DNA of 33,312 bases from an uncultured Hyphomicrobiales bacterium (GCA_964549055.1 CAZJUF010000001.1:6765-40076), one strand, 5' to 3'; shown: positions 1 through 18,980, counted from the stretch's first letter. Notes: a model not told the origin generated them from the sequence alone. A program made the numbers and translations.

Positions 1-695
1 TCTTCAAAAACTTCGTCAAGCGGGCGGCCATCGTACATCAGGTAATCAATGACGGACAGACCGGAGATAAACCGCTCCGCTGGTCCGTAAACTTCGGGTT
101 CAAACCCCTGATACTCGAGCCTGACACCATTAGCAGCAAACAACTCGTCCTGCTGATACCCACCAGCGCCGCCGCCAGCCAGATAGGCATCGCCACCTGC
201 GGCCTTGACCAGCGAAATCAGGAGTTCGGTCGCCTGGCCCTCGTGCGGCAATTCGGATTGGCGAACCATCGGGGTGGAAATTCCGAGCCTTGCTGCAATC
301 GCCTTAATGGCGGCAATATTGAAACTGGCCAGATTGGTTTGCGGCGATTTGATCAGGGGTTCAAGCTCAATCAACACTTCATCATAGCACAGTGCCTTGC
401 GGTAGTTGGCATCAAGCGTTTTCAATAGCTTGATTCGCCAGGGCTGGCTGTCGTTAATTTCGGCAGCCAGGATAGAACTGCCAAGCGGCATGCGCCTGAG
501 GGGACACGTCACCCATTGCGCTTTTCCCTGAATTGCCAGCTTCACCCGGTTTGTCCAGGAACCCATGGAGCCGGATCCTGAGCGTGGATAATCAACCGCA
601 TCGAGAAACACGAAAACATCGGCGCGTCTGATCTTGTCGAAATACCCAAGCCAGGGGAAGAAATTCGGTTGATGAATGGCAACAAGACCGCTCAT
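1..695 (-). CDS. WbqC-like family protein (C-terminus runs off the left window edge)
   Basis: Hand translation of the minus strand from ATG 695-693 gives MSGLVAIHQPNFFPWLGYFDKIRRADVFVFLDAVDYPRSG... and stays open to position 1. The HQPNFFPWLGYFDKI N-terminus is the hallmark I associate with the WbqC family. The start overlaps the upstream stop by ATGA (692-695). It is absent from the ORF track because no stop lies in the window. Confidence 0.7.
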   Translation of the reverse strand, partial: MSGLVAIHQPNFFPWLGYFDKIRRADVFVFLDAVDYPRSGSGSMGSWTNRVKLAIQGKAQWVTCPLRRMPLGSSILAAEINDSQPWRIKLLKTLDANYRKALCYDEVLIELEPLIKSPQTNLASFNIAAIKAIAARLGISTPMVRQSELPHEGQATELLISLVKAAGGDAYLAGGGAGGYQQDELFAANGVRLEYQGFEPEVYGPAERFISGLSVIDYLMYDGRPLDEVFE

Positions 696-1630
696 TGTGT
701 GTCCGCCGTTTTATCCATAAGGCGGAAGCGGTTGGCGTATGAAAGCGTCGCACCATCAGCGAGTTCCGCCTCCTCAATTTCGATGACGCCGGAGCCGCAC
801 GCAACCAGCACCCCATCACCCGGGCCGCGCCCCACAATCTGGCCAGGAACGGCTAAAATATCATGGTCAAGTTCAACTTCTCTGCCCCGCCACACAGTTA
901 ACTTCGTCCTTGCCTCCAAATACGAAAATGCCCCTGCCAGCGGTCGTGATGATGCCCGAACGAGGCGCGCGATATTTTCGGCCGAATGTCCCCAGTTGAT
1001 AAGGCCATCTTCCGGCCGTCGGGGGTGACAACGCAGAGGTAATACGCCAGAAGCATCCTGGCGTTCAGGAGCAAAAGAGGGATCTTCTACCCGCTCAAGC
1101 GCATCCGCAAACATATCAGGCAGCACATTTTCCATCCAGGCATAAACATCCGAAATATAAACCACATCATCGAGCAGCAATTTGCTGCGGACATATATAT
1201 CGCCAGCATCAACCATATCCGGGTCCATGGTGTGAACACATAGCCCCACGTGATTTTCGCCGTTGATTATCGCCCAGTTCGGGCAGGCATTGCCGCGATA
1301 GCGTGGAAGGTCGCCAGCGTGCCCATTCAAGATGCCGTGTGTCAGCGCTTCGCAGGTCTGGTGGCGGATCATCGTTGGCCAGTTGATGGAGATACCGATT
1401 TGTGCCCCGGATTGAACCAGTGCCTCACGGAAGTTGTCGTGGTTGACATCAGGGTCGAAGAGATACGGAGCCTCAGTTTCTGCGGCAAGCTGGGCAAAGG
1501 CGTCTTGCCCGGCAGCGTATTCTGGAGGTGCCGGTGCCGTAGCCACAAGGGCCACCTCATGACCATCGGCCAATAATTGCCGCACAACAGAAATAAGCCA
1601 GTGGGTGCGGCCAAGGACAGCTATTCGCAT
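692..1630 (-). CDS. Formyltransferase-family enzyme (probable sugar N-formyltransferase), copy 1
   Basis: The ORF track gives 692..1666. The N-terminus is MRIAVLGRTHW with an Fmt-type core ...THGILNGHAGDLPRYRGNACPNWAIINGE.... I chose ATG 1630 because GGAGG lies 8 nt upstream; the 1666 extension would overlap the preceding gene. Confidence 0.75.
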   Translation of the reverse strand: MRIAVLGRTHWLISVVRQLLADGHEVALVATAPAPPEYAAGQDAFAQLAAETEAPYLFDPDVNHDNFREALVQSGAQIGISINWPTMIRHQTCEALTHGILNGHAGDLPRYRGNACPNWAIINGENHVGLCVHTMDPDMVDAGDIYVRSKLLLDDVVYISDVYAWMENVLPDMFADALERVEDPSFAPERQDASGVLPLRCHPRRPEDGLINWGHSAENIARLVRASSRPLAGAFSYLEARTKLTVWRGREVELDHDILAVPGQIVGRGPGDGVLVACGSGVIEIEEAELADGATLSYANRFRLMDKTADTQ

Positions 1631-1634
1631 GATC

Positions 1635-2345
1635 TCAACCTCCCATTCCAACTTGCACGCCGCCAAGGCGGCAACTTTTTATGGTGCGGGATTTAACTTC
1701 GCTCAATAGCGTCGACAATCGATCACGTGAGCCGCCGCAGCCTTGGGACCGCCGCCGCTCCAGTAACTTGACCGGATCATTCGTTTCGTTGCGGGCAGCC
1801 TCATAATCGGCGATTGTTTCCGTATTTAAAAAAGTGTGGATCGGGTGAATATCCACTACCAACAGGTCGATCACCTCAAGATGATCAACTGGTTCGCCTA
1901 TTGAAGGATCGAGCAGCCGCACGTCATCTTCCCAGCGAATTGGAACCTGAATGAGGCCACTAAAATCACGCCAAGCGCCGATCTTTGAGCCTACGTGTGG
2001 CGGCAGCAGATAATTTGATTCATGCGTCATTCCAAACTTGCGAAACATGACACTTAACCGGCTCGATCTCACCAATGAGTGGCTACGCACAGAGATTGCT
2101 TCGGGCACAATGTCCAACAACTTTTTCACCGTATCAACGGCCTGCCCCGGTTCGCCATCAAGCAGCGGGTTAAAGTTTGGATGTATGCCCAGTTCATGCC
2201 CGCCAGCTGCGCGAATTTCTGCCAGTACCGGTGTATCATGCGTAACAAACCATGTAGCCTTGGCATCGTAGCGCTCAATAAGTTCAAGCGTATCTAAAAT
2301 TACGGCGTTATGCGCCCAGTCTATGTCAATTGTCAAACAAAGCAT
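1635..2345 (-). CDS. Polysaccharide deacetylase-fold protein (WbmS-like)
   Basis: 236-aa ORF starting MLCLTIDIDWAHNAVILDTLELIERYDAKATWFVTHDTPVL...HELGIHPNF. The pattern resembles the WbmS-type deacetylase-like proteins of O-antigen loci (from memory). It is in an operon with neighbours 4 nt and 31 nt away. Confidence 0.5.
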   Translation of the reverse strand: MLCLTIDIDWAHNAVILDTLELIERYDAKATWFVTHDTPVLAEIRAAGGHELGIHPNFNPLLDGEPGQAVDTVKKLLDIVPEAISVRSHSLVRSSRLSVMFRKFGMTHESNYLLPPHVGSKIGAWRDFSGLIQVPIRWEDDVRLLDPSIGEPVDHLEVIDLLVVDIHPIHTFLNTETIADYEAARNETNDPVKLLERRRSQGCGGSRDRLSTLLSEVKSRTIKSCRLGGVQVGMGG

Positions 2346-2376
2346 GAAGTACCATGTGCTCCTTCAGCCGCCGTTT

Positions 2377-3168
2377 TTACAGCCGCACATCGAAGAATGA
2401 TTTCAGGCGTCGAAACCATCTTAGGCCACCAATAAAAAACAAAACCGACAGGATCGTCATGTAAACAAACATCCATAGTGGTGGCAATTGATTGTTTAGT
2501 ATGGGCGCGCGGAAGAATTCGGCCAGGACGTAGAATGGATTGAATTGCAGGATTGGCTGGATCACCGTGGGATAAGCGGTCAGGGGATAGAAAATCGGCG
2601 ACGTAAAGAGTATAGCCATCAATATATTGGGCAACGCCAGAGAAACATCACGCACGAAGACGTTTAGCGAACTTAGAAAAAAACCGACACCTGAAACAAA
2701 GGTGAGCATCAGCATTACAGAAAACGGGAGTATTAAAACCGCCGCGCCTGGAATTTGGCCATCTGCAAGCTTCAAAACAAGAAGAATAGCAAAAGATACA
2801 AATAGCGGAACAATCCCCAACATGGCTCCGACCATCGGTAAAAGCTCGGATTTGAAAGCTATATTCTTAACGATACCGGCGTTTGCGGCGACCGACCCGG
2901 TGGATGAGTTCAATCCTTCGCTAAGCGCCAGCCATGGCCCGTATCCACTAATCAGCCAGATCACGAATGGCAGTGCTCCTTCGCGATCAGCCAGCCGGCC
3001 AGGAAACACGAAGGTGAATACAAAGACGAAAATTCCCATCATCATGAGCGGAGAGAGTACCGCCCACATCAGCCCCAGACCAGATCCGAGAAATCGATCC
3101 TTGAGGGTCATAACAAAAAGGTTTTTCAGCATGGCAAAGTCACGCTGGTCGAAACCGGCAATACTCAT
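2377..3168 (-). CDS. wzm: ABC-2 type polysaccharide export permease (Wzm)
   Basis: 263 aa and strongly hydrophobic, with multiple TM stretches. It has the typical Wzm N-terminus (...LKNLFVMTLKDRFLGSGLGLMWAVLSPLMMM...). ATGA overlap with the upstream ATPase gene at 3165-3168. Confidence 0.85.
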   Translation of the reverse strand: MSIAGFDQRDFAMLKNLFVMTLKDRFLGSGLGLMWAVLSPLMMMGIFVFVFTFVFPGRLADREGALPFVIWLISGYGPWLALSEGLNSSTGSVAANAGIVKNIAFKSELLPMVGAMLGIVPLFVSFAILLVLKLADGQIPGAAVLILPFSVMLMLTFVSGVGFFLSSLNVFVRDVSLALPNILMAILFTSPIFYPLTAYPTVIQPILQFNPFYVLAEFFRAPILNNQLPPLWMFVYMTILSVLFFIGGLRWFRRLKSFFDVRL

Positions 3169-4388
3169 AAATTTGTCCCCTCAATCCGCCGGACCATGAT
3201 TTGTGGCGGATGAAAAAGAAGCGGCACACCGCCGCGCTGGCCTTCCTCGTCGACGACCTCAAAAACCCGCGCCGCTCCATAGCACACGCCCAGATGGTCA
3301 ACAAGGTTTACATCCAGGCGATAAAGATCTGCGCCAAGTAAGAAAGGATCAAGTTTTACCTGCACGTTGAAAGCTCCTCGCTCAGGCAGATTGTAGCCAG
3401 CTTGACGCAGGCCGGAGTGCCAGATTTTTCGGCCATCGACGCGCATCATGGTGACCTGAATATCGCAATCCTTCGCTTGATCGCCCAGCGCTCCGGAAAT
3501 TTCAAAGGTTACCGGCTTAAAAGCCGCCACGCCTGCCTGACGAACCTCTCCCCCCTGGTGGATGATAACGTCTTCGATAATGCCGATTTCGGATCGATTT
3601 TTGATCGCGCGCGCGGCGCCAAACTTACGCTTCAGCACGGCCTCATCAGTTTGCCTGACAGACGCTTCGTAGGCCGATGTAACCTCCTTCGGATCGCCGT
3701 CCATGACCAGTTGACCGTTGTCGATCCACAGACATCGCGTGCACATTTCAACGATTGCATTGGTTGCATGTGTCACCAGAATGACGATGCGGCCCCGCTC
3801 AGCTACTTCTTTCATGCGGCGGCTGGCTTTTTGTGAAAAAAATACGTCACCAACCGCCAGTGTCTCGTCCAGGATCAGAATATCCGGCTCAATGAAAGTG
3901 CCCATGGAAAACGCCAATCGCGCCTTCATGCCGGAAGAATAAGTGCGTACCGGTCGCTCGATATACTCGCCCAGTTCGGTGAACTCGATAATCTCTTCGG
4001 CCACAGCGCTAATCTGTTCATTTGATCGCCCATGTATGGTGGCATCAAGATAGATGTTCTCGCGACCTGTCATCTCCTCCTTGAGCACAGCACCAATGGT
4101 GAGCATGGCATGAATGTCACCCTCAACCTCAATGGTGCCGGAGGTTGGTTCGGTTATGCCGGCGAGTAATGATAATAGTGTTGTCTTGCCAGCACCGTTG
4201 GGTCCAATAATTCCCACGCGCTCGCCCTCGCTGACCGAAAAGCTGACGTCATCAAGAGCCTGCACCTTGCGGATACTTTCCTGAGGCTGACCAAGACGCA
4301 AAGCCTCAAAGAGCGAAACCGCCCGGCCACCGACAGCTGCGAGGGAAAAGACCTTGCAAAGACCATTTACTTTAATCGAGGCACTCAT
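3165..4388 (-). CDS. wzt: Polysaccharide ABC exporter ATP-binding protein (Wzt-type) with C-terminal extension, copy A
   Basis: 407 aa. Walker A GPNGAGKTT, signature-like YSSGMKARLAFS, Walker B LILDETLAVGD, H-loop ILVTHA. About 150 aa of beta-rich C-terminal extension (...YRLDVNLVDHLGVCYGAARVFEV...). Confidence 0.85.
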   Translation of the reverse strand: MSASIKVNGLCKVFSLAAVGGRAVSLFEALRLGQPQESIRKVQALDDVSFSVSEGERVGIIGPNGAGKTTLLSLLAGITEPTSGTIEVEGDIHAMLTIGAVLKEEMTGRENIYLDATIHGRSNEQISAVAEEIIEFTELGEYIERPVRTYSSGMKARLAFSMGTFIEPDILILDETLAVGDVFFSQKASRRMKEVAERGRIVILVTHATNAIVEMCTRCLWIDNGQLVMDGDPKEVTSAYEASVRQTDEAVLKRKFGAARAIKNRSEIGIIEDVIIHQGGEVRQAGVAAFKPVTFEISGALGDQAKDCDIQVTMMRVDGRKIWHSGLRQAGYNLPERGAFNVQVKLDPFLLGADLYRLDVNLVDHLGVCYGAARVFEVVDEEGQRGGVPLLFHPPQIMVRRIEGTNL

Positions 4389-5548
4389 GAGCTTTTCACC
4401 GACCAGTTGGATGCAAGTGTAAGCCCCTGTCCCGGCTCACCTGAAACTTCGATCGGCAACCCCGTGCCGCTGAGCCAGCCAAAACCGTCAAGTGCCACGC
4501 GCCGGTTTGGCATCTCAGGATCGGGCATAACCAGGTGCAGGCTGATCTGATAGCTGCCGGGCTCCAGCGGAAGGCGGGGAACAGTGACCGTTACTTCATA
4601 GCGTCCCGGCACCTCGTCGACAGCTGTCACGTCGCGTGACATCAATGCCGTTTCCCAACCAAATCCCGGTTGCATCCGCTCCATGACGACAACCACACCG
4701 ACCTTCTCCGCTACTTCTATCTCGACCTCGACGGTCAGAATAAGATCTTCACCAGGTCGTGGCCTGGCGGGAAACTGCGGCGCATTGACAAAATGTGCAA
4801 CACCCTTGTGATGATCTTCCTTCGCGCTTTCACCATAAAGATAATGCCGTGCCGCTTTTTCAGCTGGTCCGGAAAAAACCACTTTGCCTTTGTCGAGGAT
4901 GTGCGCGGTCTCGCACAGTTTGACAACAGAGGCCCAGTCATGCGTGACCAGAACCCCCGATGCGCCACTTGAAACGCGCTCACGCAAGCGTCGCCAGCAC
5001 TTCGAGCGGAAATGCTGATCACCAACCGAGAGAATTTCGTCAAGCAGGTAAACATCATAATGGCCTGCGGTTGCTGTGGAAAAAAACAATCGCGCACCCA
5101 TACCGGCCGAATAGGTAAGGATCGGATCGTCAAACCGATCTCCCAGCTCGGAGAAGTCGTGAATGTCCGCGATCATGTCAACCTGTCGATTTGCACTGAA
5201 GCCATGCACTGTCAACAACCGCTGTGCATACTGACGCCCGGTGAGTTCCGGGTGGCCAACAAGGCCAAGCTCATAAAGACCGGAAAGAGCCCCGTTTACG
5301 CTTGCGCGACCCTGATCGCAAACATAGACACCGCCGATAACCCGCAACAATGTGGATTTTCCGGCACCATTGCGCCCCAAAATTCCGACAAACTGCCCTT
5401 TGGGCACATCGAAAGAAACGTCCGTAAGCGCATCAAAAACCGGCACACCGACGCCCCCTGCAAACATAAGGCGCCATGCGTTACCCGCATCCACCAAAGC
5501 AAAACTCTTGGTAACGCCCTGGCATGTAACTGCAATTGCTTGGGTCAT
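4385..5548 (-). CDS. Polysaccharide ABC exporter ATP-binding protein (Wzt-type) with a different C-terminal extension, copy B
   Basis: 387 aa. Walker A GRNGAGKSTLL, signature-like YSAGMGARLFFS, Walker B YLLDEILSVGD, H-loop VLVTHD. About 140 aa C-terminal extension (...PGSYQISLHLVMPD...). ATGA overlap with copy A at 4385-4388. Confidence 0.8.
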   Translation of the reverse strand: MTQAIAVTCQGVTKSFALVDAGNAWRLMFAGGVGVPVFDALTDVSFDVPKGQFVGILGRNGAGKSTLLRVIGGVYVCDQGRASVNGALSGLYELGLVGHPELTGRQYAQRLLTVHGFSANRQVDMIADIHDFSELGDRFDDPILTYSAGMGARLFFSTATAGHYDVYLLDEILSVGDQHFRSKCWRRLRERVSSGASGVLVTHDWASVVKLCETAHILDKGKVVFSGPAEKAARHYLYGESAKEDHHKGVAHFVNAPQFPARPRPGEDLILTVEVEIEVAEKVGVVVVMERMQPGFGWETALMSRDVTAVDEVPGRYEVTVTVPRLPLEPGSYQISLHLVMPDPEMPNRRVALDGFGWLSGTGLPIEVSGEPGQGLTLASNWSVKSS

Positions 5549-5552
5549 GATT

Positions 5553-6317
5553 TCAGATAAGATCCGTTTCGTCTGCTGGCTTGTTCGGACGCCACAGTTG
5601 AATGCAAACTTTTTGCCCGTGCAAATCGAAATATGCGGGGTAATGCTCAGAATTTGCCGCCCTGATTTTGTTAATCAGATCAAGGAGAGGCAGTTCCGGG
5701 TCGATTTTGGAATGTTCTGGAACCCGATTGGGCAAAATAGGTGGAGGGGGAAACGGTTGCGGTTTGATACCGGTGATACCCATAGTCTCAAATTTTTCAA
5801 GAGCATCAACGACCACCTGAGGTTCCAGCTCACCCGTTTTTCGAGCAAGGCTGGCTGTTGTCTCGAAGGGTGAAAGTGGAAAGGCGCGTTGCAACAAAAT
5901 TGGTCCGGTGTCCATGCCCTCATCAACGAAATGGACTGTTACGCCACTTTCAGTTTCACCATTCTCTATGACCCAAGACAATGTCCGTGCGCCAGCATAA
6001 TCAGGCAAGAGCGAGCCGTGCACATTCAGGCACGTCGAAACGCGGTCAAGAAATTTCGTCGGAAAGAGGTAGGAAAAACCGACTGAAAGACACAAGCTCC
6101 CAGCCACAGTGTCTGCTACTTTGTCGAGATCAAACTTGCTTTCCAACACCGTCACGGGTAATCCGAGGCTTTGCGCAAATTCAATACTGGCAGCAACCTT
6201 TGGCCATTTTTCAGGGGAATTTGCGAATACGTGTAAAACGCGGTGTCCGGCATCCACAACAGCCTTCAGCACTCGCTCTCGCGGCCCGCCGGTAAAATAA
6301 TACAGATCAAGACTCAT
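5553..6317 (-). CDS. Formyltransferase-family enzyme, copy 2
   Basis: 254 aa with the Fmt core motif CLNVHGSLLPDYAGARTLSWVIENGETESGVTVHFVDEGMDTGPIL. It has a short C-terminal domain and is clearly divergent from copy 1. Confidence 0.7.
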   Translation of the reverse strand: MSLDLYYFTGGPRERVLKAVVDAGHRVLHVFANSPEKWPKVAASIEFAQSLGLPVTVLESKFDLDKVADTVAGSLCLSVGFSYLFPTKFLDRVSTCLNVHGSLLPDYAGARTLSWVIENGETESGVTVHFVDEGMDTGPILLQRAFPLSPFETTASLARKTGELEPQVVVDALEKFETMGITGIKPQPFPPPPILPNRVPEHSKIDPELPLLDLINKIRAANSEHYPAYFDLHGQKVCIQLWRPNKPADETDLI

Positions 6318-6333
6318 AAGATTCCCACAACAT

Positions 6334-7395
6334 TCAATTGCCGAACGGTCTTACATAGAAAAACGGAAATTGTTCAAGTAGTTTTCGAGGTTGCGTTTTG
6401 TTTAGTCGCGAATCCCATACCGCGCCAAAATATTCATAGATGTGATCTATGGCGCCCCAACCTTGTTTAAAGCGATGCACACCGGCCTGGGTCGACCACG
6501 TGCCGCCCCAGTTCCAATGGCTTCGCCCTTCAATAACGGCATCGCACATCGCAGTTGCGATAAGTGCGGACAGGACCTGGTGACTGCGGAAGGAATCAAC
6601 AATGACCGGCGTGAAATACTCCACCCAATCGCGATAGTAAAGATTTAGCAGCGCCCCGGCAAACTCCCCCTCAAGACGGGCGACATAAAGGCGGCATGCC
6701 CCACGAGCTTCCAGGTTGTTGCGAATGGCAGAAAATTCACGCTCGCTTTTGGGATTTCCACCGATCTTTTCCATTCCAAGTCGATGATGCAGGATCAATT
6801 GACGCCAATCCTCATCTGCCGTGGAAATTTCTACCACAAACCCCTGACGCAAACCTTTGCGTACAAGGTTCCGGGTCTTTTGACGACAAGTTGCTAAAAC
6901 ACCTTCAAGCGCCTCTTCCTGATTAGCAGCAACAGGCAGGCGCGAAATTTGACCGATGCGGGAATCCCAAGCCTTTAACCCGATCTGATCGGCCAGAGAT
7001 GCAATCCCCGGTGACAGCGGGTGAGAGACAATATTGATTGATCCAATCGAATATTCGCGGCAAATCTCAACCAGCCCGTTGGCCAGCGCTGACAATACAC
7101 TTTGCGGACTGGAGACGTCATTGGCCAGCAATACATCACCGTGGCTGCCGAAATAGGGTAGCGAGTTCAAAACCACACCATGTTCTGAATTGTGGATGAA
7201 TGTCGGCAATGTCGCGATAATTTGCGAGTCTTCATAAGCCGCTATGATCACTTGCTCACTTTCGGGTAAGATTTCCGTCAGTGCCGCCAAATACTCCGGC
7301 GTATGAAACATGAGGCTCGCATCACAGCTATGGACAAATTCACCATATGCCAATCTTTCGTCACCTGATAACTTTTTTACTGTGATGTTCAACAC
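6334..7395 (-). CDS. FemAB-like / GNAT-fold (Acetyltransf_6-type) acyl- or aminoacyl-transferase
   Basis: 353 aa. The C-terminal half (...RLYVARLEGEFAGALLNLYYRDWVEYFTPVIVDSFRSHQVLSALIATAMCDAVIEGRSHWNWGGT...) resembles FemAB-family/BioF2-like GNAT proteins. The start is GTG at 7395, and the gene overlaps the upstream gene by 7 nt. Confidence 0.55.
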   Translation of the reverse strand: MLNITVKKLSGDERLAYGEFVHSCDASLMFHTPEYLAALTEILPESEQVIIAAYEDSQIIATLPTFIHNSEHGVVLNSLPYFGSHGDVLLANDVSSPQSVLSALANGLVEICREYSIGSINIVSHPLSPGIASLADQIGLKAWDSRIGQISRLPVAANQEEALEGVLATCRQKTRNLVRKGLRQGFVVEISTADEDWRQLILHHRLGMEKIGGNPKSEREFSAIRNNLEARGACRLYVARLEGEFAGALLNLYYRDWVEYFTPVIVDSFRSHQVLSALIATAMCDAVIEGRSHWNWGGTWSTQAGVHRFKQGWGAIDHIYEYFGAVWDSRLNKTQPRKLLEQFPFFYVRPFGN

Positions 7396-8417
7396 ATCCC
7401 CGCAAATTCTCCGGCCACAATGCGTGCGTTCTTATCGCCAAGCGCTGGATAAAATGGAGGTGACAAAGTTTTGCGGAAGGCTCGCATCGTGTTTGGAAAT
7501 TGGTTATCGTCAAGACCAAGCGTATGATGGGCAAGTTGATCTATCCCGTGGCGCATGACAATTCCGGCCTTAGCCAGTTCGGGAAACAAATCTTTGGCTT
7601 CACAGTCGTTTAAATCAAGCGGAAACCGGAACATGTGCCCCGGTGATACGTCAATTTGTTTCAACAGCCGCGACACCAGCGCCTTGGGAGCCTCGGCTAT
7701 ATAGAGATCAAAAATCCTGGCTCGTTGCGCTTCCAGTTCGTCAATCCGGGTAAGCTGCACAGAGCCAATAGCAGCCTGCATGTCCGTAAATGGAGCAGGC
7801 TCGTGACAAGCGCATTCCACAGCTTTCAGGTTCTCACAATATTGTCCCGTCATGTCGATAGCGGCACCACCACCGCCAGCACACAGATATTTGGTCGGGT
7901 GAAACGACAGGCTGACAATATCGCCAAAAGCCTCGGGAGAGGCATCAACAAGGACATTCGGTGAAGCCTGGCAGAGGTCGTGAACGATTGGCACACCGAA
8001 CTGACGGAAAGCGGCGGCGGATTGTCTAAAGCCAAAGGGCGGGGCGAGAATGATAGCACCGCAATCAGCGGTAAACACGGCCTCCATCTGTTCTACATTG
8101 GCAACCCAGCCATCCGCTATATCGCAGAGCAGCGGGCAATGCCCGGCTTCGCGGATTGCCCACAGCACCGCATCGCAGACGTAACTCTGAACAATAATGC
8201 TCGAACCTGAAGGAAGATCAAGGGCTGTCAGTGCAGCCTGAATAGCCATGCGACCACTGGCAAACAGCGTAACTGCCTTGTCGCCGCCAACAAGACGGTT
8301 GAGAGCATGGCGAAATTCACTCCCCGCATCACCGCCGATAAGCATGCCTGAGCGCAGGACATCGGCGACGGCGTCAACTTCGCGCTTTCCAATCCAGGGC
8401 TGGGAATGTGTAATCAT
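7389..8417 (-). CDS. DegT/DnrJ/EryC1/StrS-family sugar aminotransferase (short form)
   Basis: 342 aa. The N-terminus is ...QPWIGKREVDAVADVLRSGMLIGGD..., and the putative PLP lysine lies in SLSFHPTKYLCAGGGG. ATGA overlap with the upstream asnB-like gene at 8414-8417. Confidence 0.7.
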   Translation of the reverse strand: MITHSQPWIGKREVDAVADVLRSGMLIGGDAGSEFRHALNRLVGGDKAVTLFASGRMAIQAALTALDLPSGSSIIVQSYVCDAVLWAIREAGHCPLLCDIADGWVANVEQMEAVFTADCGAIILAPPFGFRQSAAAFRQFGVPIVHDLCQASPNVLVDASPEAFGDIVSLSFHPTKYLCAGGGGAAIDMTGQYCENLKAVECACHEPAPFTDMQAAIGSVQLTRIDELEAQRARIFDLYIAEAPKALVSRLLKQIDVSPGHMFRFPLDLNDCEAKDLFPELAKAGIVMRHGIDQLAHHTLGLDDNQFPNTMRAFRKTLSPPFYPALGDKNARIVAGEFAGMC

Positions 8418-10309
8418 GCCGCCCGGCCTTCAAACTGCAAATGATTTCCACCAAGGAAAACCCGGCACCATTGCTCGAAGCTCAGGAATGACCAGATCAG
8501 CAGTCTGTGGTTGGCTTTTTTTGACATATGTTCTTCGACAATTTTGCGGATGAAGTCGGGGTTAAGATAATCCGCTGAGGCAAGGTCTTTGGACAGCAGG
8601 GTTTCGCGCACATAATCTGCATTCTCACCGCGATACCACGAAGCCTCAGGCGATGAAAACCCTTGTTTGCGGCGTTGAATGACCTCACGCGGAACCAGGT
8701 GAGCCATGGCCTGGCGCAGACAGGACTTGCCGCCAGAAAACGCTTCTTGAGCAATGAGCTTCTTTTTGACTTCGTCTTCGTCAATATCAAGCATGTGTTT
8801 CAGGTCTGCGAGCTTGTGCTCGACCGGCAGACGCATGGCAAAATCAACCAGCGCATTGTCAAGAAAGGGAAAGCGCTCTTCGAGACCACTGGCCATCGCC
8901 AGCTTGTCGCCAACAAGGAGAAGGCCGGCAAGGAAGGTGCGGCATTCAAAATAAAGCGATGCTGAAATTTGTTCCTCCGGCGTTTGAAAACCAATGTTAC
9001 CGGCTTTGGAAAAGACACTGGCGAAAATATTGAACATCTCGTCTTTGTTTTCAGTACCGGAACGAAACAGCTCATCGCGGTCTTTTGCCGTGGTCAACCG
9101 TTGCCAGAAACCATAGTAGTTTTCCAGAAAGTTCTGCTTGTCGAGCGAGCGAAAAATACGGTAGTAGCGCCATGGATAGCCACCGAACAATTCATCGCCG
9201 CCCGCTCCCGACAGACAAACCTTGACGAATTTCGAGGCGAGACGAGCGATATAATAATTGGGATAGCTCATGCCAAGCCGTAAATCCTCAAGCTGCCAGA
9301 TCACCCGTGGCAGCGACCAGCGGATGTCTCCAGCATTCATCACCTGCTCATAATGCTCAGTCTTGTAGGTGTAGGCCATCAACTCGGCGGCGCGGCGTTC
9401 GTCAAATGAGGCTTCGGTGCCGTCCACTCGAGACATTTCAAAGCCCGCCGTAAAGGTTTGCATACGCGGCACGTGATTGGCTGCCAGTGCTACAATTGAG
9501 CCCGAATCCATGCCACCGGAAAGATAGGCGCCAACAGGAACATCCGAGACCAGTTGCCGTTCCACCGCCTCTCCCATCAGTCGTTCCAAAGTAGCAACGC
9601 TTTCCCTGGTATCGATTGGTTCAACTTGTGAAAAATCGTAATCCCAATAGGTCTCGAGCCGCTCGCCTTGCGCATCGATGACAAGTATTGATGCTGGTGG
9701 AAGGTGTTCAACGTCGCAAAACAGTGTGTGGTTGCGAAACAGGTTTTGAAAGGTAAAATATTCACGAAGGGCTGCATCATTAACCTGGACGGTGAAATCA
9801 GGGTGTTTCATGAACGCCTTGATTTCTGATGCAAAGGCAAGACCTTTTCGCCTCCGCCACAAATAAAGCGGCTTGACGCCATAGCGGTCACGCACTAAAA
9901 ACAGCCGTTTTTCATCAGCGTCCCACAGCGCAAACGCTGCCATGCCGTCTAATCGGCCGGCAAGTTTCTGAATGCCCCAGATCGCATAACCGGCGATCAG
10001 GACTTCAGTGTCGGAACGGCTTTTGAAGGTCCAGCCTGCCTTTTCCAACTCCAGCCGTAATTCCCGGAAATTGTAAATCTCTCCGTTATAGACAACGACG
10101 ATGCGCCCGTCGGGCGATTTCATCGGCTGGTGAGCTGCATCGGTCAGATCGATGATCGACAATCTCTGATGGCCCAGCCCCAGGGTGCCATCCACATAAA
10201 CCCCTTTGTCATCAGGCCCGCGATGAGCCAACGCATCGCGCATGGCAATCAGCACCTGTTCGTCGACGGGTGCGCCATCAAAATTGAAAATACCGACTAT
10301 GCCGCACAT
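8414..10309 (-). CDS. Asparagine synthase (glutamine-hydrolysing)-family amidotransferase, copy 1
   Basis: 631 aa. It begins MCGIVGIF (Ntn Cys2), followed by HRGPDD and a PP-loop region GAYLSGGMDSGSIV. Confidence 0.85.
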   Translation of the reverse strand: MCGIVGIFNFDGAPVDEQVLIAMRDALAHRGPDDKGVYVDGTLGLGHQRLSIIDLTDAAHQPMKSPDGRIVVVYNGEIYNFRELRLELEKAGWTFKSRSDTEVLIAGYAIWGIQKLAGRLDGMAAFALWDADEKRLFLVRDRYGVKPLYLWRRRKGLAFASEIKAFMKHPDFTVQVNDAALREYFTFQNLFRNHTLFCDVEHLPPASILVIDAQGERLETYWDYDFSQVEPIDTRESVATLERLMGEAVERQLVSDVPVGAYLSGGMDSGSIVALAANHVPRMQTFTAGFEMSRVDGTEASFDERRAAELMAYTYKTEHYEQVMNAGDIRWSLPRVIWQLEDLRLGMSYPNYYIARLASKFVKVCLSGAGGDELFGGYPWRYYRIFRSLDKQNFLENYYGFWQRLTTAKDRDELFRSGTENKDEMFNIFASVFSKAGNIGFQTPEEQISASLYFECRTFLAGLLLVGDKLAMASGLEERFPFLDNALVDFAMRLPVEHKLADLKHMLDIDEDEVKKKLIAQEAFSGGKSCLRQAMAHLVPREVIQRRKQGFSSPEASWYRGENADYVRETLLSKDLASADYLNPDFIRKIVEEHMSKKANHRLLIWSFLSFEQWCRVFLGGNHLQFEGRAA

Positions 10310-10353
10310 CGACTATGCCTCAATCTGCAATGAAAAAATGTCCACCGGGATAT

Positions 10354-11505
10354 TCAACGAAGCTTCTCCAATGCCATAACAACACGATCCACATCTTCAG
10401 CCCCCATGTGGTTGTGCAGGGGCAGTGCGATGCTTTGGGCTTCGACCCGCGTTGCCACCGGATAATCAGCAGGATTGGTTGCAAATGTTTCGCGGTAGAT
10501 TTTCAATCCGACAACTGAATGAGTACCCGGGCGCCCGGCGATGCCACTGTCCTGGAGGTGTTGAAGAATATCATTGCGGCGGGGAACACCGGCGACATCA
10601 TCAACCATCACAACATAGGCCTGTAATGCGTGGTCATAGTCTTGGGGCCTGAGCGGTGGTGCAATCCAGTTTAATTTCTTCAGGCGCTCGTCATATAAAT
10701 CCGCAAGCTCTTGGCGCTCAGCAATAAATCGGTCAAGTTTTTGAAGCTGGATGGTGGCGACCGCCGCCTGAATATCCGTCATGCGATAATTGAAGCCAAA
10801 GACCGTAAAATCCGGCAACTCATAGGGTTTGGGACCACGATGGCGCACTTCCTCAGAGATGCTGGCACCGTGATTGCGATACATATCCAATTTGGCTGCT
10901 AAACTGTCATCATCGGTGGTTACAACACCGCCTTCACCACAAGTTATGGATTTGCGCGGATGCAGGGAAAAACAGCCTATATGGCCGAGTGAGCCCGCCG
11001 GTCTGCCCTTGTAGGCCGCCCCGGCAGCACAGGCTGCATCCTCTATTACAACAACATGTTCCGGCAAAACCGCCGTCAAAGCATCCATGTCGGCTGCCAG
11101 CCCGAAAAGATGCACCGGGATGATTGCCCTGGTGCGGGGCGTTACAGCGCGCTCGACAGCTTCAGGATCAAGGTTGTAGGTATCGGCGCGAATATCGACA
11201 AAGACCGGTATCGCACCACATTGAACAACCACATTAGCGGTGGCCACCCAGGTGAATGCCGGCACTATAACTTCGTCGCCTTTTCCAACACCGGCAGCAA
11301 CTAGGGCCAGGTGCAGAGCCGTTGTGCACGAGGTTGTTGCCAGTGCGTGGCGCACGCCGTGACGTTTGGCAAATCCAGCTTCGAATTTACCTACCCACGG
11401 TCCTTGCGTCAGCCAGCCGGACTCAAGCACCGAACGGACGGCTTCAACTTCTTCTTCGCCCAGACAAGGCTTGGCAATTGGTAGAAAGGCTTGCTGTTTG
11501 GTCAT
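10354..11505 (-). CDS. DegT/DnrJ/EryC1/StrS-family sugar aminotransferase
   Basis: The ORF track gives 10354..11526 with a TTG start. I prefer ATG 11505 (MTKQQAFLPIAKPCLGEEEVEAVRSVLESGWLTQGP...) with GGTGAG upstream. The PLP-lysine context is FSLHPRKSITCGEGG. Confidence 0.85.
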   Translation of the reverse strand: MTKQQAFLPIAKPCLGEEEVEAVRSVLESGWLTQGPWVGKFEAGFAKRHGVRHALATTSCTTALHLALVAAGVGKGDEVIVPAFTWVATANVVVQCGAIPVFVDIRADTYNLDPEAVERAVTPRTRAIIPVHLFGLAADMDALTAVLPEHVVVIEDAACAAGAAYKGRPAGSLGHIGCFSLHPRKSITCGEGGVVTTDDDSLAAKLDMYRNHGASISEEVRHRGPKPYELPDFTVFGFNYRMTDIQAAVATIQLQKLDRFIAERQELADLYDERLKKLNWIAPPLRPQDYDHALQAYVVMVDDVAGVPRRNDILQHLQDSGIAGRPGTHSVVGLKIYRETFATNPADYPVATRVEAQSIALPLHNHMGAEDVDRVVMALEKLR

Positions 11506-11526
11506 AATAATCTCACCAATTCTCAA

Positions 11527-13431: not shown

Positions 13432-13463
13432 TTCGCCCCGGCAATCGTTTTTGGTTCATGTTA

Positions 13464-14432
13464 TCACCTCACAGCTCTGTCCGCCTGACGCCAGGCGATG
13501 AGTTGTTTGAGGCCGTCTTTCAAGGGGATTTTGGCCGTAAATCCAATCTCTTGTGTCGCGCGTTCAGGGCAGCCTATGCGATTGCGCACCAACGTTGCCG
13601 CACTGCGTGGGGCATATTGTATCTCCTGGTTACAGCCGGTCAATTGGCAGAGAATTTCAGCCAGCTCCTTGAGTGACGTTCGCGTGCCGGTGCCAACATT
13701 GTAGAACTGGTCGACAGTATCAGCGCGCAGGGCGCAAAGATTTGCACGCGCACAATCTTCGACCGCGACAAAATCAAAGGCTTCCGAACCATCGCCCAGA
13801 ATGGTTGGCCCTTCGCCACGGTCGATGGCATCCAGCATTTTCATGATGACGGCGATATAAGCACCCTTGTAGTCCTGGCGCGGCCCGTAAACATTCATAT
13901 ATCTGAGACCGGCAACATTGAGGCCGTAACGATGATGGAAGGCGCGTGCCATGGCTTCGCCGCAAATCTTGGTGGCACCATAAAAGTTTTTGTTATTGAA
14001 CGGATGGTCTTCGGTCATGGGTTCGGACACGGCATCGCCATAGACCGAAGCCGAGGAGGAATAAATCAGGCGCTTTACATCTTTGGCGACACAGGCTTCA
14101 AGCACATTGAACATACCGCGCACATTGACGTCGAATGCGGCGCGCGGATATTCGTGGCATTGCAGCAGCCACAATGCGGCCAGATGAAAAACGCCATCAG
14201 CACCTTCCAGCGCACTTTCGAGAACATCGCTTTGCAGGATGTCGCCACCCGCTTCAAAAATCTTCACCCGCGGATCACTCAGCGCGGCTGCAAGGTTTTC
14301 ATGCCGGCCACGAACGAAGTTGTCATAAATCAGTATCTCGCCAACATCGCTCGCAACCAGTTGATCGACAAGGTGTGATCCGATAAGGCCCGCACCGCCT
14401 ACCACCACTATTTTTTTACCTGTTATATCCAT
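13464..14432 (-). CDS. NAD-dependent nucleotide-sugar epimerase/dehydratase (extended SDR)
   Basis: 322 aa. Glycine-rich NAD motif VVVGGAGLIGSHLV, catalytic SSSASVYG and YGATKICGE (YxxxK). Confidence 0.85.
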   Translation of the reverse strand: MDITGKKIVVVGGAGLIGSHLVDQLVASDVGEILIYDNFVRGRHENLAAALSDPRVKIFEAGGDILQSDVLESALEGADGVFHLAALWLLQCHEYPRAAFDVNVRGMFNVLEACVAKDVKRLIYSSSASVYGDAVSEPMTEDHPFNNKNFYGATKICGEAMARAFHHRYGLNVAGLRYMNVYGPRQDYKGAYIAVIMKMLDAIDRGEGPTILGDGSEAFDFVAVEDCARANLCALRADTVDQFYNVGTGTRTSLKELAEILCQLTGCNQEIQYAPRSAATLVRNRIGCPERATQEIGFTAKIPLKDGLKQLIAWRQADRAVR

Positions 14433-14520
14433 GATGTTTCCTGCTCGTTACGGGCTCCACTGCCGAATGCAATTTTTTTGATAAATTTATAAACCACGAA
14501 GTGCGACCCAAAAGAATTTT

Positions 14521-15603: not shown

Positions 15604-15648
15604 TTCGTTCGTGGTGGGCGCACAAAAATCACGCTGTGCTGTTCTTGC

Positions 15649-17562: not shown

Positions 17563-17710
17563 TTCGCAGAAGGCTCCCTTTCGCAAGTCGGTTAGACCTG
17601 TAACATTAACAAATTTTTGGTGCTGATTTCATGGCTTGAATGATGGTACGGCACACTGTCTTAAGTTTCCGTGCGGATGTGAAATATCACTATTGGGAAA
17701 AACCACTTTT

Positions 17711-17726: not shown

Positions 17727-17834
17727 GGGAGGTGAACGATCATCTTCCCGGTACGAAGCATTCAGACTAGAGTGTTCAGAAGCTGAATGTCAATATCATT
17801 ATTCAGATCGCCAGCCGCATCTTAGGGCCGCACT

Positions 17835-18329: not shown

Positions 18330-18343
18330 GACTTCGATGGCTC

Positions 18344-18958: not shown

Positions 18959-18980
18959 CACACTTCACTATAATTTTTAC

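What the first reader, a model, noticed from the sequence alone, without database searches (positions are those of the whole stretch)
3165..5548. Two tandem, apparently competent Wzt ATPases with unrelated C-terminal domains serving a single Wzm
Two adjacent ABC ATPase genes (407 and 387 aa) overlap each other by ATGA (4385-4388), and the distal one overlaps the only Wzm permease gene by ATGA (3165-3168).

Both proteins keep all the catalytic motifs, so neither looks like a degenerate partner:
- Walker A: GPNGAGKTT / GRNGAGKST
- Signature-like motif: YSSGMKARLAFS / YSAGMGARLFFS
- Walker B plus Glu: LILDETLAVGD / YLLDEILSVGD
- H-loop: VTH in both

Each carries a roughly 140-160 aa beta-rich C-terminal extension, in the position where Wzt proteins carry the carbohydrate-binding module that reads the chain-terminating cap. 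By eye the two extensions do not align with each other.

Characterised O-antigen ABC exporters are Wzm2Wzt2 with one Wzt. The arrangement here suggests one of two things:
- an obligate heterodimeric NBD pair with two different glycan-end readers; or
- two alternative ATPases that let one channel export two differently capped glycans.

The second idea fits the locus, which also duplicates formyltransferase, AsnB and DegT functions.
Basis: partly seen in the sequence, partly recalled or inferred. Interest (0 to 1): 0.65.

Follow-up and report, generated by a model that had tools for sequence, protein, structure and literature searches.

The report
Conserved two-ATPase O-antigen exporter cassette
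Two different Wzt-type ATPase genes sit next to one Wzm channel gene here; the same trio recurs in 21 other loci (a Bordetella protein matches the A type), so this exporter probably runs on a mixed ATPase pair, which nobody has tested.

Summary
Three minus-strand genes overlap by ATGA: wztA (4385-5548, 387 aa), wztB (3165-4388, 407 aa) and wzm (2377-3168, 263 aa). Both ATPases belong to the Wzt/TagH class, and all catalytic motifs are nearly invariant across about 119 homologs of each.

The two C-terminal domains show no sequence similarity to each other (hhalign probability 2%). Both AlphaFold models nevertheless match solved Wzt carbohydrate-binding domains best, so they share one fold and differ in lineage.

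This is not a local duplication. A-type and B-type are two old subfamilies. In all 21 other loci examined, down to 33% identity, an A-type gene is followed directly by a second ATPase gene; it scores B-type in every locus I profiled. A never appears alone. Hosts include Bradyrhizobium, Bosea, Microvirga, a cyanobacterium and many MAGs. Bordetella encodes an A-type protein, 45% identical to A.

A separate protein family fuses two Wzt modules in one chain, and the one context examined has a single permease gene alongside.

Best reading: an obligate WztA-WztB heterodimer on a Wzm dimer (confidence about 0.6), fixing the asymmetry already seen in the homodimeric Aquifex transporter. The arrangement has been mentioned in passing but I found no study of it, so I rate it a new variant of a known kind.

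The parts
4385..5548 (-). wztA: A-type Wzt ATPase, 387 aa (NBD plus CBD), first gene of the pair
   Evidence: ORF. ABC_tran. Best PDB hit A. aeolicus Wzt, aligned 41-338 vs 38-349. Belongs to a distinct subfamily with invariant Glu93 in 'YELG', and with 'TGR[AQ]YA' in place of canonical 'TGRENI'. The NBD sits on its own long branch.
4829..5548 (-). WztA nucleotide-binding domain (residues 1-240), including the gate-helix region with conserved 'AWRL'
   Evidence: Motif conservation in 119 homologs. The hinge region 'ARHYLYGE' keeps the Tyr aligned with A. aeolicus Tyr233 (PMC9445017).
4388..4828 (-). WztA carbohydrate-binding domain (residues 241-387)
   Evidence: AF2 pLDDT 92.2. Foldseek top hits are 2r5o, 6o14, 8dky and 5hnp, all Wzt CBDs. 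Pfam Wzt_C is weak only (E = 0.0045, 17.4 bits, cut-off 30.4). The invariant loop 'ERMQPGFGWE' aligns with the A. aeolicus CBD loop that docks on the NBD.
3165..4388 (-). wztB: B-type Wzt ATPase, 407 aa (NBD plus CBD), second gene of the pair
   Evidence: ORF. ABC_tran. NBD 42-43% identical to canonical Wzts and groups with them. Aligns over 98% of its length with the annotated 'O8 family O-antigen export ABC transporter ATP-binding subunit' (33% identity, E = 4e-54). Thr/Ser replaces the 'LLELG' Glu in 118 of 118 family members.
3654..4388 (-). WztB nucleotide-binding domain (residues 1-245), with canonical 'TGRENI' and gate-helix region 'VSLFEALR'
3168..3653 (-). WztB carbohydrate-binding domain (residues 246-407), preceded by a short conserved helix
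   Evidence: AF2 pLDDT 85.9. The top 17 Foldseek hits are all Wzt CBDs (5hno, 5hnp, 6o14, 8dky, 2r5o; TM 0.60-0.67). No Pfam hit even at E <= 10. Invariant 'RVDGR' and 'EEGQxGGxP' patches.
2377..3168 (-). wzm: the only ABC-2 permease gene found, 263 aa, translationally coupled to wztB
   Evidence: ABC2_membrane. Weak KpsM-family hit. A permease of 261-273 aa lies next to the pair in related loci wherever the contig allows, except L085.
1635..2345 (-). WbmS-like/WbqC-like gene, a conserved neighbour of the transporter cassette
   Evidence: PF22537 WbmS-like, E = 1.2e-50. A WbqC/WbmS-like gene follows or lies near the cassette in L001-L005, L078, L081, L085, L086 and L087.
692..18961 (-). The long minus-strand operon holding the cassette. 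Gene order: HTH regulator, NusG-family protein, AsnB, unknown 360 aa, SDR epimerase, unknown 634 aa, DegT, AsnB, DegT-like, FemAB/GNAT-like, formyltransferase, wztA, wztB, wzm, WbmS-like, formyltransferase
19112..27709 (.). UDP-ManNAc3NAcA precursor genes that define the likely substrate chemistry: WbpI-type 2-epimerase (19112-20158, minus strand), then WbpB-, WbpD-, WbpE- and WbpA-type genes (23637-27709, plus strand)
   Evidence: Pfam Epimerase_2, GFO_IDH_MocA, Hexapep, DegT and UDPG_MGDP_dh. The pathway assignment rests on established knowledge of the Pseudomonas Wbp and Bordetella Wlb pathway.

Best explanation
The three genes encode one O-polysaccharide ABC exporter with the composition Wzm2-WztA-WztB. 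This is a Wzm homodimer channel driven by an obligate heterodimer of two different, catalytically competent Wzt ATPases, each carrying its own Wzt-type carbohydrate-binding domain.

Shown:
- Both proteins are Wzt-class NBDs with intact motifs.
- Both C-terminal domains have the Wzt-CBD fold.
- A-type and B-type are separate old subfamilies that always occur together, in the order A then B, beside one permease gene.
- Translational coupling is kept in the close family.

Inferred:
- The two proteins assemble 1:1 on Wzm2.
- Their CBDs form a heterodimeric reader below the NBDs. This would fix genetically the asymmetry seen in the homodimeric Aquifex transporter, where the CBD dimer docks on one NBD only and just one CBD, together with its own hinge helix, binds the capped O antigen.
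- The substrate is probably a Bordetella-like polymer of 2,3-diacetamido-2,3-dideoxy-uronic acid or uronamide. Its terminal residue would be modified by the neighbouring DegT, FemAB-like and formyltransferase enzymes.
- The faster-diverging B CBD may read the variable cap, and the better-conserved A CBD may have a conserved docking or recognition role. This last step is the weakest.
For: 1. Competence: Walker A, YS[SA]GM, Walker B Glu, D-loop and H-loop His are nearly invariant in about 119 homologs of each protein.
2. Fold: AF2 models have pLDDT 92 and 86, and the top PDB matches of both are Wzt CBDs. A aligns by sequence into the A. aeolicus CBD. B aligns along its whole length with O8-family Wzt.
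3. Co-occurrence: in 21 distinct loci besides the window, an A-type gene is followed directly by a second ATPase gene. It scores B-type in every locus profiled (L078, L081, L083-L087). A single permease gene is adjacent where the contig allows, except L085. I found no A-only locus. This holds down to 33-36% identity to A and across Alphaproteobacteria, a cyanobacterium and MAGs labelled Bacteroidota, Opitutales and others. In addition, 46 of the top 120 hits of each independent homolog search share a contig length, which is a lower bound.
4. Subfamily signatures: A has invariant Glu in 'YELG' plus 'R[AQ]YA'. B has Thr/Ser/Asp at that Glu position plus canonical 'RENI'. The NBDs evolve at equal rates, with mean pairwise identity 57.1% against 57.4%.
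5. Origin: A and B are not sister paralogs (33.5% identity). B groups with canonical Wzts. This is an old partnership and not a recent duplicate.
6. Coupling: ATGA overlaps A/B and B/wzm in the window, and 4-bp overlaps occur in close relatives.
7. Both N-termini keep a conserved segment in the gate-helix region, an element that works at the Wzm interface (PMC6379404).
8. Rosetta-stone analogy: 46 representative proteins of 740-921 aa contain two Wzt-class NBDs in one chain. Most (43) are NBD-CBD-NBD-CBD by profile comparison, while P0337 is NBD-NBD-Wzt_C. In the one context examined, the fused gene lies next to a single ABC2_membrane gene.
9. Precedent for asymmetry: in A. aeolicus WzmWzt the CBD dimer contacts one NBD, and only CBD1-a binds the O antigen (PMC9445017).
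Against: - There is no direct evidence of physical A-B interaction. I could not run a multimer prediction, and I had too few paired sequences for coupling analysis.
- Strict co-occurrence is also expected if both proteins are needed for separate reasons.
- Neither ATP site is degenerate, unlike many heterodimeric ABC proteins, so nothing in the motifs forces heterodimerisation.
- B-type relatives such as O8-family Wzt are known to work as homodimers, so B2 could in principle work alone.
- The fused proteins are a different family, not A+B orthologs. Both of their halves score somewhat better against the B NBD profile. They therefore show only that the design exists in nature.
- L085 shows no wzm within the sequence recovered.
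- The divergence-rate difference between the CBDs is modest, and the locus pairs compared are not independent.
Confidence: 0.6

Rival explanations
1. There are two alternative homodimeric motors for one channel. Wzm2-A2 and Wzm2-B2 form separately, and each CBD pair reads a differently capped glycan or a different terminal variant of one glycan.
For: - Both proteins have complete catalytic motifs, so each could form two consensus ATP sites as a homodimer.
- The CBDs belong to different lineages, A. aeolicus-like and O8-like.
- Canonical relatives of B act as homodimers (established knowledge of E. coli O8/O9a and A. aeolicus Wzt).
- From my own recollection, unchecked here, Bordetella O antigens carry heterogeneous terminal residues.
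Against: - If A2 were self-sufficient, A-only loci should exist. I found none in 21 loci spanning 33-88% identity.
- The order A then B and the tight coupling are conserved, as expected for subunits made in equal amounts.
- The pair stays the same while the neighbouring tailoring enzymes change. It does not track duplicated biosynthetic functions.
- I saw no sign of a second polymer pathway in the window, although several large ORFs have no Pfam assignment.
Confidence: 0.2
2. Wzm2-B2 is the transporter. A is an accessory ATPase that does not sit on Wzm. It could be a cytoplasmic cap or chain sensor that couples chain termination or delivery to export.
For: - B is the canonical partner: 42-43% identity to canonical Wzts, with 'TGRENI' kept.
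- A is the divergent partner. It lies on a long branch, and its 'ENI' motif, which starts the helical subdomain (in ABC NBDs generally the part that contacts the permease), is replaced by '[AQ]YA'.
- A never occurs without B, whereas B-like Wzts occur alone elsewhere.
Against: - A keeps the gate-helix-region insertion with conserved 'AWRL', all catalytic motifs and the hinge Tyr. These features make sense for a subunit docked on the channel.
- In the fused family, two Wzt modules in one chain accompany one permease gene.
- As far as I know, no Wzt-class NBD has been reported to work off the membrane.
Confidence: 0.12
3. One copy is a redundant or decaying paralog left over from a duplication or locus fusion, with no function of its own.
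For: Two similar genes lie side by side. Only the weaker scores of A against ABC_tran (58 bits against 88 bits) could hint at drift.
Against: - Both subfamilies are conserved along their full length, with near-invariant catalytic motifs and conserved CBD patches, over divergence down to about 33% identity and across phyla.
- The two NBDs evolve at equal rates.
- There are no frameshifts or truncations.
Confidence: 0.02

Closest known systems
Aquifex aeolicus WzmWzt O-antigen ABC transporter (PDB 6amx, 7k2t, 8dku, 6o14, 8dky)
   Same: - Same NBD class: E = 1e-41 for A and 8e-53 for B.
- ABC-2 Wzm partner, a conserved segment in the gate-helix region and a hinge helix.
- A C-terminal CBD of the same fold.
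- A's CBD aligns by sequence, including the conserved NBD-docking loop.
- The solved transporter already works asymmetrically: the CBD dimer sits on one NBD and only one CBD is active (PMC9445017).
   Different: - The Aquifex transporter is a Wzt homodimer encoded by one gene. Here two non-sister Wzt subfamilies are always encoded together.
- The B partner has Thr/Ser where Aquifex has Glu in 'LLELG', and Glu where Aquifex has Tyr233. The A partner lacks 'ENI'.
- The substrate chemistry differs: a methylated mannose/rhamnose cap in Aquifex, against a probable diacetamido-uronic acid polymer here.
E. coli O8/O9a and Klebsiella/Raoultella O12 Wzt, the cap-reading CBD prototypes (PDB 2r5o, 5hno, 5hnp)
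   Same: - NBD plus C-terminal CBD architecture.
- B aligns over 98% of its length with annotated O8-family Wzt at 33% identity.
- Both window CBDs hit these structures at TM about 0.55-0.65.
   Different: - Those systems have a single wzt, usually in the order wzm-wzt, and form homodimers.
- Pfam Wzt_C does not reach threshold on either window CBD.
- No WbdD-like kinase/methyltransferase terminator was identified in the window.
Bordetella wbm O-antigen locus (wbmL, wbmM, wbmN exporter genes) and Burkholderia pseudomallei type B O-antigen clusters (two wzt plus one wzm)
   Same: [quoted passage not shown]
- Bordetella encodes an A-type protein (P0496) that is 45% identical to the window's A and carries all A hallmarks.
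- The window has wbm-like content: a WbmS-like gene, AsnB, formyltransferases and the Wbp/Wlb precursor pathway.
   Different: - I could not verify that P0496 lies in the wbm locus, nor which of wbmL/M/N is which.
- In Burkholderia the two wzt genes flank wzm instead of lying in tandem, and I did not classify them.
- In neither organism did I find a study of why there are two ATPases.
ABC systems with two different, both-consensus NBD subunits, such as OppD/OppF and EcfA/EcfA'
   Same: Two paralogous, catalytically complete ATPase genes are encoded side by side and assemble as a heterodimer. This comparison rests on established knowledge of those systems.
   Different: - Those are importers with different folds and different or non-repeated membrane partners.
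- Here the membrane part is a single-gene type V exporter channel.
- Here each NBD also carries its own substrate-reading domain.
Fused double-Wzt proteins (NBD-CBD-NBD-CBD, about 770-920 aa) found here
   Same: - Two Wzt modules work with one permease gene (L079).
- Their first CBD-like domain is related to both the A and B CBDs.
- The Glu of 'xELG' is kept in nearly all N-terminal modules and relaxed in C-terminal modules, echoing A against B.
   Different: - They are a single polypeptide and a different lineage. Both halves score closer to the B NBD profile, and the composition is high-GC.
- The neighbourhood is different: radical SAM/SPASM, NRPS-like and PhyH genes.
- As far as I could find, they are uncharacterised.

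Membership tests
Wzt (ATPase of Wzm/Wzt O-polysaccharide ABC exporters) | ABC NBD with Walker A, 'YSSGM'-type signature, Walker B with catalytic Glu, D-loop and H-loop | tested here: met
   Both proteins meet this, and the motifs are nearly invariant in about 119 homologs each.
Wzt (ATPase of Wzm/Wzt O-polysaccharide ABC exporters) | Closest solved relatives are Wzt/TagH/TarH-class NBDs | tested here: met
   phmmer against PDB: A. aeolicus Wzt, Mtb RfbE and TarH/TagH top both lists. The best NCBIfam models are galactan Wzt/RfbE and TagH, though below the equivalog cut-offs.
Wzt (ATPase of Wzm/Wzt O-polysaccharide ABC exporters) | Encoded next to an ABC-2 (Wzm) permease inside a glycan biosynthesis locus | tested here: met
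   wzm overlaps wztB by ATGA. The locus holds Wbp-pathway, DegT, AsnB, formyltransferase and epimerase genes.
Wzt (ATPase of Wzm/Wzt O-polysaccharide ABC exporters) | C-terminal carbohydrate-binding domain: Pfam Wzt_C (PF14524) above the gathering score | tested here: not met
   A CBD: E = 0.0045, 17.4 bits against a cut-off of 30.4. B CBD: no hit at E <= 10.
Wzt (ATPase of Wzm/Wzt O-polysaccharide ABC exporters) | C-terminal domain with the Wzt-CBD beta-sandwich fold | tested here: met
   AF2 pLDDT 92 and 86. The Foldseek top hits of both are 2r5o, 5hno/5hnp, 6o14 and 8dky.
Wzt (ATPase of Wzm/Wzt O-polysaccharide ABC exporters) | The CBD binds the non-reducing terminal cap of the cognate glycan | not testable with these tools
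   Needs the glycan and binding assays.
Wzt (ATPase of Wzm/Wzt O-polysaccharide ABC exporters) | Functions as a Wzt homodimer (Wzm2Wzt2), as in all characterised systems | tested here: inconclusive
   Two non-sister Wzt subfamilies were encoded together in every one of the 21 other loci examined, which argues against a simple homodimer. No physical data exist.
Heterodimeric ABC NBD pairs with one degenerate ATP site | One partner has non-consensus catalytic residues (Walker B Glu, H-loop His or signature) | tested here: not met
   Both partners keep consensus residues. B's Thr/Ser at the 'LLELG' Glu position also occurs in both halves of another Wzt-like protein, P0337. I therefore do not read it as degeneracy.
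Bordetella wbm-type O-antigen systems | UDP-ManNAc3NAcA precursor pathway (WbpA/B/D/E/I or WlbA-D type), amidotransferase, formyltransferase and WbmS-like genes | tested here: met
   By Pfam domain content only. The glycan itself is unknown.
Bordetella wbm-type O-antigen systems | Exporter built from three genes homologous to wbmL/M/N | tested here: inconclusive
   A Bordetella protein (P0496) is a clear A-type homolog: 45% identity, A-NBD 311 bits against B-NBD 154 bits. The literature names three exporter genes. I could not fetch its genomic position or the partner genes.

The most novel reading that the evidence does not exclude
Heteromeric Wzt may be a widespread, unrecognised class of O-polysaccharide exporter. 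In this class, Wzm2 is driven by an obligate WztA-WztB pair whose two different CBDs divide the work, for example one reading the variable chain-terminating cap and the other providing conserved docking or backbone recognition. That would fix in the genes the functional asymmetry that the homodimeric Aquifex transporter adopts transiently. The class would span Alphaproteobacteria, Betaproteobacteria (possibly including the Bordetella O-antigen exporter) and cyanobacteria. It would have a fused single-chain counterpart in high-GC bacteria.
Probability: 0.5. Interest if true: 0.7.

Novelty: new variant of a known kind. Interest (0 to 1): 0.55.

Why it matters
All mechanistic models of ABC-dependent O-antigen export come from homodimeric Wzt systems: E. 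coli O8/O9a, Klebsiella O12, Aquifex and the mycobacterial galactan exporter.

The 2022 Aquifex structures raised a puzzle. The CBD dimer is positioned asymmetrically, and only one CBD, together with its own NBD, binds the polymer. A natural system in which the two halves are different proteins would let each half be mutated separately:
- the ATP site, hinge or CBD of one subunit only;
- which CBD binds the cap;
- whether both ATP sites are needed;
- how cap recognition is coupled to hydrolysis.

None of this can be separated in a homodimer.

The family is large and occurs in culturable, genetically tractable bacteria such as Bradyrhizobium, Bosea, Microvirga, Pseudanabaena, Polaromonas and Achromobacter. 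Bordetella encodes an A-type homolog, and if it lies in the wbm locus the same design would serve an O antigen that matters for infection and cross-immunity.

The finding also affects annotation. The second ATPase is currently labelled only as 'ABC transporter ATP-binding protein', and Pfam's Wzt_C model misses both CBD types.

Tried and rejected
1. Reading B's Thr at the 'LLELG' Glu position as a degenerate Q-loop. Rejected, because the same Thr occurs in both halves of another Wzt-like protein (P0337). The structural papers I read do not define a Q-loop residue for Wzt.
2. A recent tandem duplication. Rejected, because A and B are less similar to each other (33.5%) than either is to A. aeolicus Wzt (38-42%), and B groups with canonical Wzts.
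3. Direct homology between the two CBDs. BLASTP and hhalign find none. Only fold comparison and a bridging family connect them.
4. The Chelatococcus plasmid with two matching places. It turned out to hold two separate, ordinary wzm-wzt pairs.
5. Loci L018-L076 from the genome scan are unrelated ABC ATPases picked up by short peptide patterns. The 828-aa Streptomyces ORF in L064 looks like a TMD-NBD exporter, not a fused Wzt.
6. Confirming what wbmL/M/N encode. Preston 1999 (PMC96651) is not held. The supplements of two Bordetella papers and a locus-tag search gave nothing. The Tuanyok 2012 Burkholderia paper does not mention wzt.
7. The first listing of cluster members gave no organism names.
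8. No B-type family member was found on PLSDB plasmids; the best hit there was 33-35% identical.
9. Literature searches for 'two Wzt', 'wzt1/wzt2', 'second wzt' and 'heterodimer' found no functional study of paired Wzt proteins. This covers open-access text only.

Full report
**1.

On the minus strand there are three tightly packed ORFs: 4385..5548 (387 aa, called A here), 3165..4388 (407 aa, B) and 2377..3168 (263 aa, Wzm).

The junctions read ...AGCTC**ATGA**GTGCC... and ...AATTT**ATGA**GTATT..., so both are true stop/start overlaps. The upstream formyltransferase stops 4 nt before A.

Pfam assigns ABC_tran to A and B and ABC2_membrane to the third protein. The best solved relatives of both ATPases are Aquifex aeolicus Wzt, M. 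tuberculosis RfbE and TarH/TagH. The best NCBIfam models are Wzt/RfbE and TagH.

The two NBDs are 37% identical over 238 residues (E = 1e-43). BLASTP finds no alignment beyond residue about 240.

**2. Both ATPases look competent, and not only in this genome**

I aligned about 119 homologs of each protein. Walker A, the YS[SA]GM signature, Walker B with its catalytic Glu, the [SA]VGD D-loop and the H-loop His are all nearly invariant in both families. Neither protein is a degenerate partner.

There are subfamily differences that are fixed across each family:

| Feature | A family | B family |
|---|---|---|
| Position of the Glu in A. aeolicus 'LLELG' | Glu, 119 of 119 | Thr 89, Ser 29, never Glu or Gln |
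| Canonical 'TGRENI' | replaced by 'TGR[AQ]YA' (Tyr 119/119, Ala 118/119) | kept (Asn 118/118) |
| Position aligned with A. aeolicus hinge Tyr233 | Tyr ('HYLYG') | Glu ('AYEA') |

I do not read B's Thr as an inactive site. Another Wzt-like protein, P0337, has 'LLTLG' in both of its NBDs.

**3. The C-terminal domains: no sequence similarity, same fold**

- Pfam's Wzt_C model gives only a sub-threshold hit on the A domain (E = 0.0045, 17.4 bits against a cut-off of 30.4). It gives nothing on the B domain even at E <= 10.
- Profile-profile comparison of the two domains gives 2% probability.
- AlphaFold2 models built on family alignments are confident: A domain pLDDT 92.2, B domain 85.9. Both are all-beta sandwiches.
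- Foldseek against the PDB puts Wzt carbohydrate-binding domains first for both. For B these are 5hno/5hnp (O12), 6o14/8dky (A. aeolicus) and 2r5o (O9a), filling the top 17 hits at TM 0.60-0.67. For A they are 2r5o, 6o14, 8dky and 5hnp at TM 0.55-0.64.
- At the sequence level, A aligns with A. aeolicus Wzt well into its CBD (41-338 against 38-349). This includes A's invariant loop 'ERMQPGFGWE', which lies opposite the A. aeolicus loop that docks the CBD on the NBD.
- B aligns over 98% of its length with the annotated 'O8 family' Wzt (33% identity, E = 4e-54).
- A third family of CBD-like domains, described in section 6, matches both profiles: 96% probability (E = 5e-9) to A and 88% (E = 3e-6) to B.

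So the two domains are very distant homologs. Both are Wzt-type CBDs, of different lineages.

**4. The pair is an old, conserved cassette**

The closest relatives are a Hyphomicrobiales MAG (87/88/98% identity for A/B/Wzm) and two Alphaproteobacteria MAGs. They have the same three genes in the same order.

So do Bradyrhizobium spp., Microvirga alba, a Bosea MAG, a Methylobacteriaceae MAG, and MAGs labelled Opitutales and Bacteroidota.

An exhaustive search with A against 1.84 billion representatives collapsed this whole close family into one cluster. It then revealed about 40 further full-length A-like lineages at 32-46% identity.

I looked up the context of seven of these lineages, at 33-43% identity to A. 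One is from the complete genome of the cyanobacterium Pseudanabaena sp. Chao 1811. In every one, the A-like gene is followed directly by a second ATPase gene. By my profiles that second gene is B-type: B-NBD 268-313 bits against A-NBD 136-170 bits in the four divergent loci profiled. It has Thr or Asp at the Glu position and canonical 'GRENI'.

Altogether, 21 distinct loci besides the window show A followed by a second, B-like ATPase gene. A single permease gene is adjacent wherever the contig allows, with one exception (L085). In one locus the order is wzm-A-B. I found no A-only locus.

A crude NBD tree shows that A and B are not sister paralogs. They are 33.5% identical, B is 42-43% identical to canonical Wzts and groups with them, and A sits on its own long branch. 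Across 15 paired loci the two NBDs have evolved at the same rate, with mean pairwise identity 57.1% against 57.4%.

**5. Chemistry and the Bordetella connection**

The window encodes the WbpA/B/D/E/I-type pathway to UDP-ManNAc3NAcA (19112-20158 and 23637-27709). It also encodes two AsnB amidotransferases, an SDR epimerase, extra DegT aminotransferases, a FemAB/GNAT-like protein, two formyltransferases and a WbmS-like protein.

AsnB, WbqC/WbmS-like and Wbp genes travel with the cassette in distant lineages too. This gene content matches the Bordetella wbm O-antigen locus.

Hester et al. 2013 (PMC3849452) state that wbmL, wbmM and wbmN together encode the ABC exporter, which is three genes.

My last homolog search found a 'MULTISPECIES [Bordetella]' protein, P0496. 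It is unambiguously A-type: 45% identical to the window's A over 366 residues (E = 4e-104), A-NBD 311 bits against B-NBD 154 bits, and A-CBD 74 bits. Similar proteins occur in Achromobacter dolens, Polaromonas aquatica, Dechloromonas and Accumulibacter.

I could not fetch its genomic position, so the claim that the Bordetella exporter is of this type remains an inference.

[quoted passage not shown] Two wzt genes were also noted in Massilia violaceinigra (PMC9834719).

I found no study that asks why there are two.

**6. Fused double-Wzt proteins**

The representative search also returned 46 proteins of 740-921 aa with two matched stretches.

- They contain two Wzt-class NBDs. In 43 of them, each NBD is followed by about 140-160 residues.
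- In P0277, Pfam calls both of these regions Wzt_C (109 bits).
- In the others, the two regions are related to each other (98.6% probability) and to the A and B CBDs.
- One such gene (L079) lies next to a single ABC2_membrane gene.
- The N-terminal modules nearly always keep the 'xELG' Glu. The C-terminal modules have Glu, Asp, Gly or other residues there.

These proteins are a separate lineage and not A+B fusions. They do show that two non-identical Wzt modules serving one permease gene is a recurring natural design.

**7. Mechanism**

The reading I favour (about 0.6) is an obligate WztA-WztB heterodimer on a Wzm homodimer. It rests on:
- strict co-occurrence and a fixed gene order;
- translational coupling;
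- equal evolutionary rates of the two NBDs;
- intact catalytic motifs in both partners;
- conserved segments in the gate-helix region of both (gate-helix role from PMC6379404);
- the fused-protein analogy.

The idea also fits what is known of the homodimeric Aquifex transporter. There the CBD dimer docks on only one NBD, and only 'CBD1-a', together with the hinge helix of its own NBD, binds the capped O antigen. The second CBD is 'inactive' but contributes one residue to the pocket (PMC9445017). A heterodimer would make that asymmetry permanent.

Which subunit reads the cap is open. A keeps the hinge Tyr and an Aquifex-like docking loop. B's CBD diverges somewhat faster: mean pairwise identity is 30.0% against 35.4%, and A's is the higher in 91% of locus pairs, which are not independent. 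B's CBD profile also fails in two of the five most distant lineages profiled (L083, L085) and scores lower than A's in the other three. This is weak support for B as the specificity module.

Rivals:
- **Two alternative homodimeric motors sharing one channel (0.2).** The absence of A-only loci counts against it. So does the constancy of the pair while the neighbouring tailoring enzymes change.
- **B2-Wzm2 as the transporter, with A as an off-channel accessory ATPase (0.12).** A's conserved gate-helix-region segment and full catalytic set count against it.
- **A decaying paralog (0.02).** Conservation effectively excludes it.

**8. Verdict**

The link to locally duplicated biosynthetic genes is not supported.

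The gene arrangement is already visible in public annotation, and two or three papers mention it in passing. It is therefore not a new kind of system. The idea of a heteromeric Wzt with two different CBDs appears to be unstudied, it applies across phyla, and it can be tested directly in culturable bacteria.

I rate it a new variant of a known kind, with interest 0.55.

Noticed in passing
L079:7001-9394 (fused gene) and L079:9400-10200 (permease); proteins P0252-P0337: There is a family of about 770-920 aa proteins with two Wzt-class NBDs, mostly arranged NBD-CBD-NBD-CBD in one chain. I found 46 representatives, with high-GC composition. One lies beside a single ABC2_membrane gene in a cluster with radical SAM/SPASM, WelO5-like, PhyH, carbamoyltransferase and NRPS-like (A-PCP-TE) genes. 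I found no description of such fused Wzt proteins.
   Followed up: partly
window:20333-21878 (+): A DUF2793 protein (356 aa) and an XkdW-like protein (156 aa) sit between the glycan operon and the Wbp precursor genes. As I recall, unchecked here, both domains are typical of phage or gene-transfer-agent tail and fibre modules. They could be a receptor-binding remnant next to the surface-glycan locus.
   Followed up: no
window:17835-18961 (-): A NusG-family paralog (164 aa) and a winged-helix/MarR-like regulator (205 aa) head the roughly 18-kb minus-strand operon. This suggests a dedicated RfaH/LoaP-like antitermination system for the long polysaccharide operon.
   Followed up: no
window:11527-13431 (-) and window:14521-15603 (-): Two large ORFs (634 and 360 aa) inside the operon have no Pfam hit. 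A 646-aa ORF with no Pfam hit occupies the same position in the closest relative, L001. No typical glycosyltransferase is present in the operon, so these are candidate polymerising enzymes of unknown family.
   Followed up: no
window:2377-3168 vs L006:8369-9160: Wzm is 97.7% identical to that of the closest MAG, while the two ATPases encoded immediately upstream are only 87-88% identical. This is a sharp step in divergence within one cassette. It could reflect recombination or much stronger constraint on the channel.
   Followed up: no
L083:5199-8309 and L085:1243-3596: The cassette has variants. L083 has the order wzm-A-B instead of A-B-wzm. In L085 the A-like protein keeps canonical 'GRENA', its CBD is not detected by the A profile, and no wzm lies in the recovered sequence. 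L085 may mark the edge of the family.
   Followed up: partly
window:31026-32192 (-): A sulfotransferase-family gene (388 aa) lies near the end of the window, beyond a Crp-family regulator and a Na+/sulfate-type symporter. It may relate to sulfation of a surface glycan or another small molecule.
   Followed up: no
window:3168-3653 (-) and the homologs in alignment A2: Pfam Wzt_C (PF14524) misses the B-type CBD completely and the A-type CBD nearly so, although both have the Wzt-CBD fold. Surveys that rely on Wzt_C will therefore under-count cap-reading Wzt proteins.
   Followed up: yes
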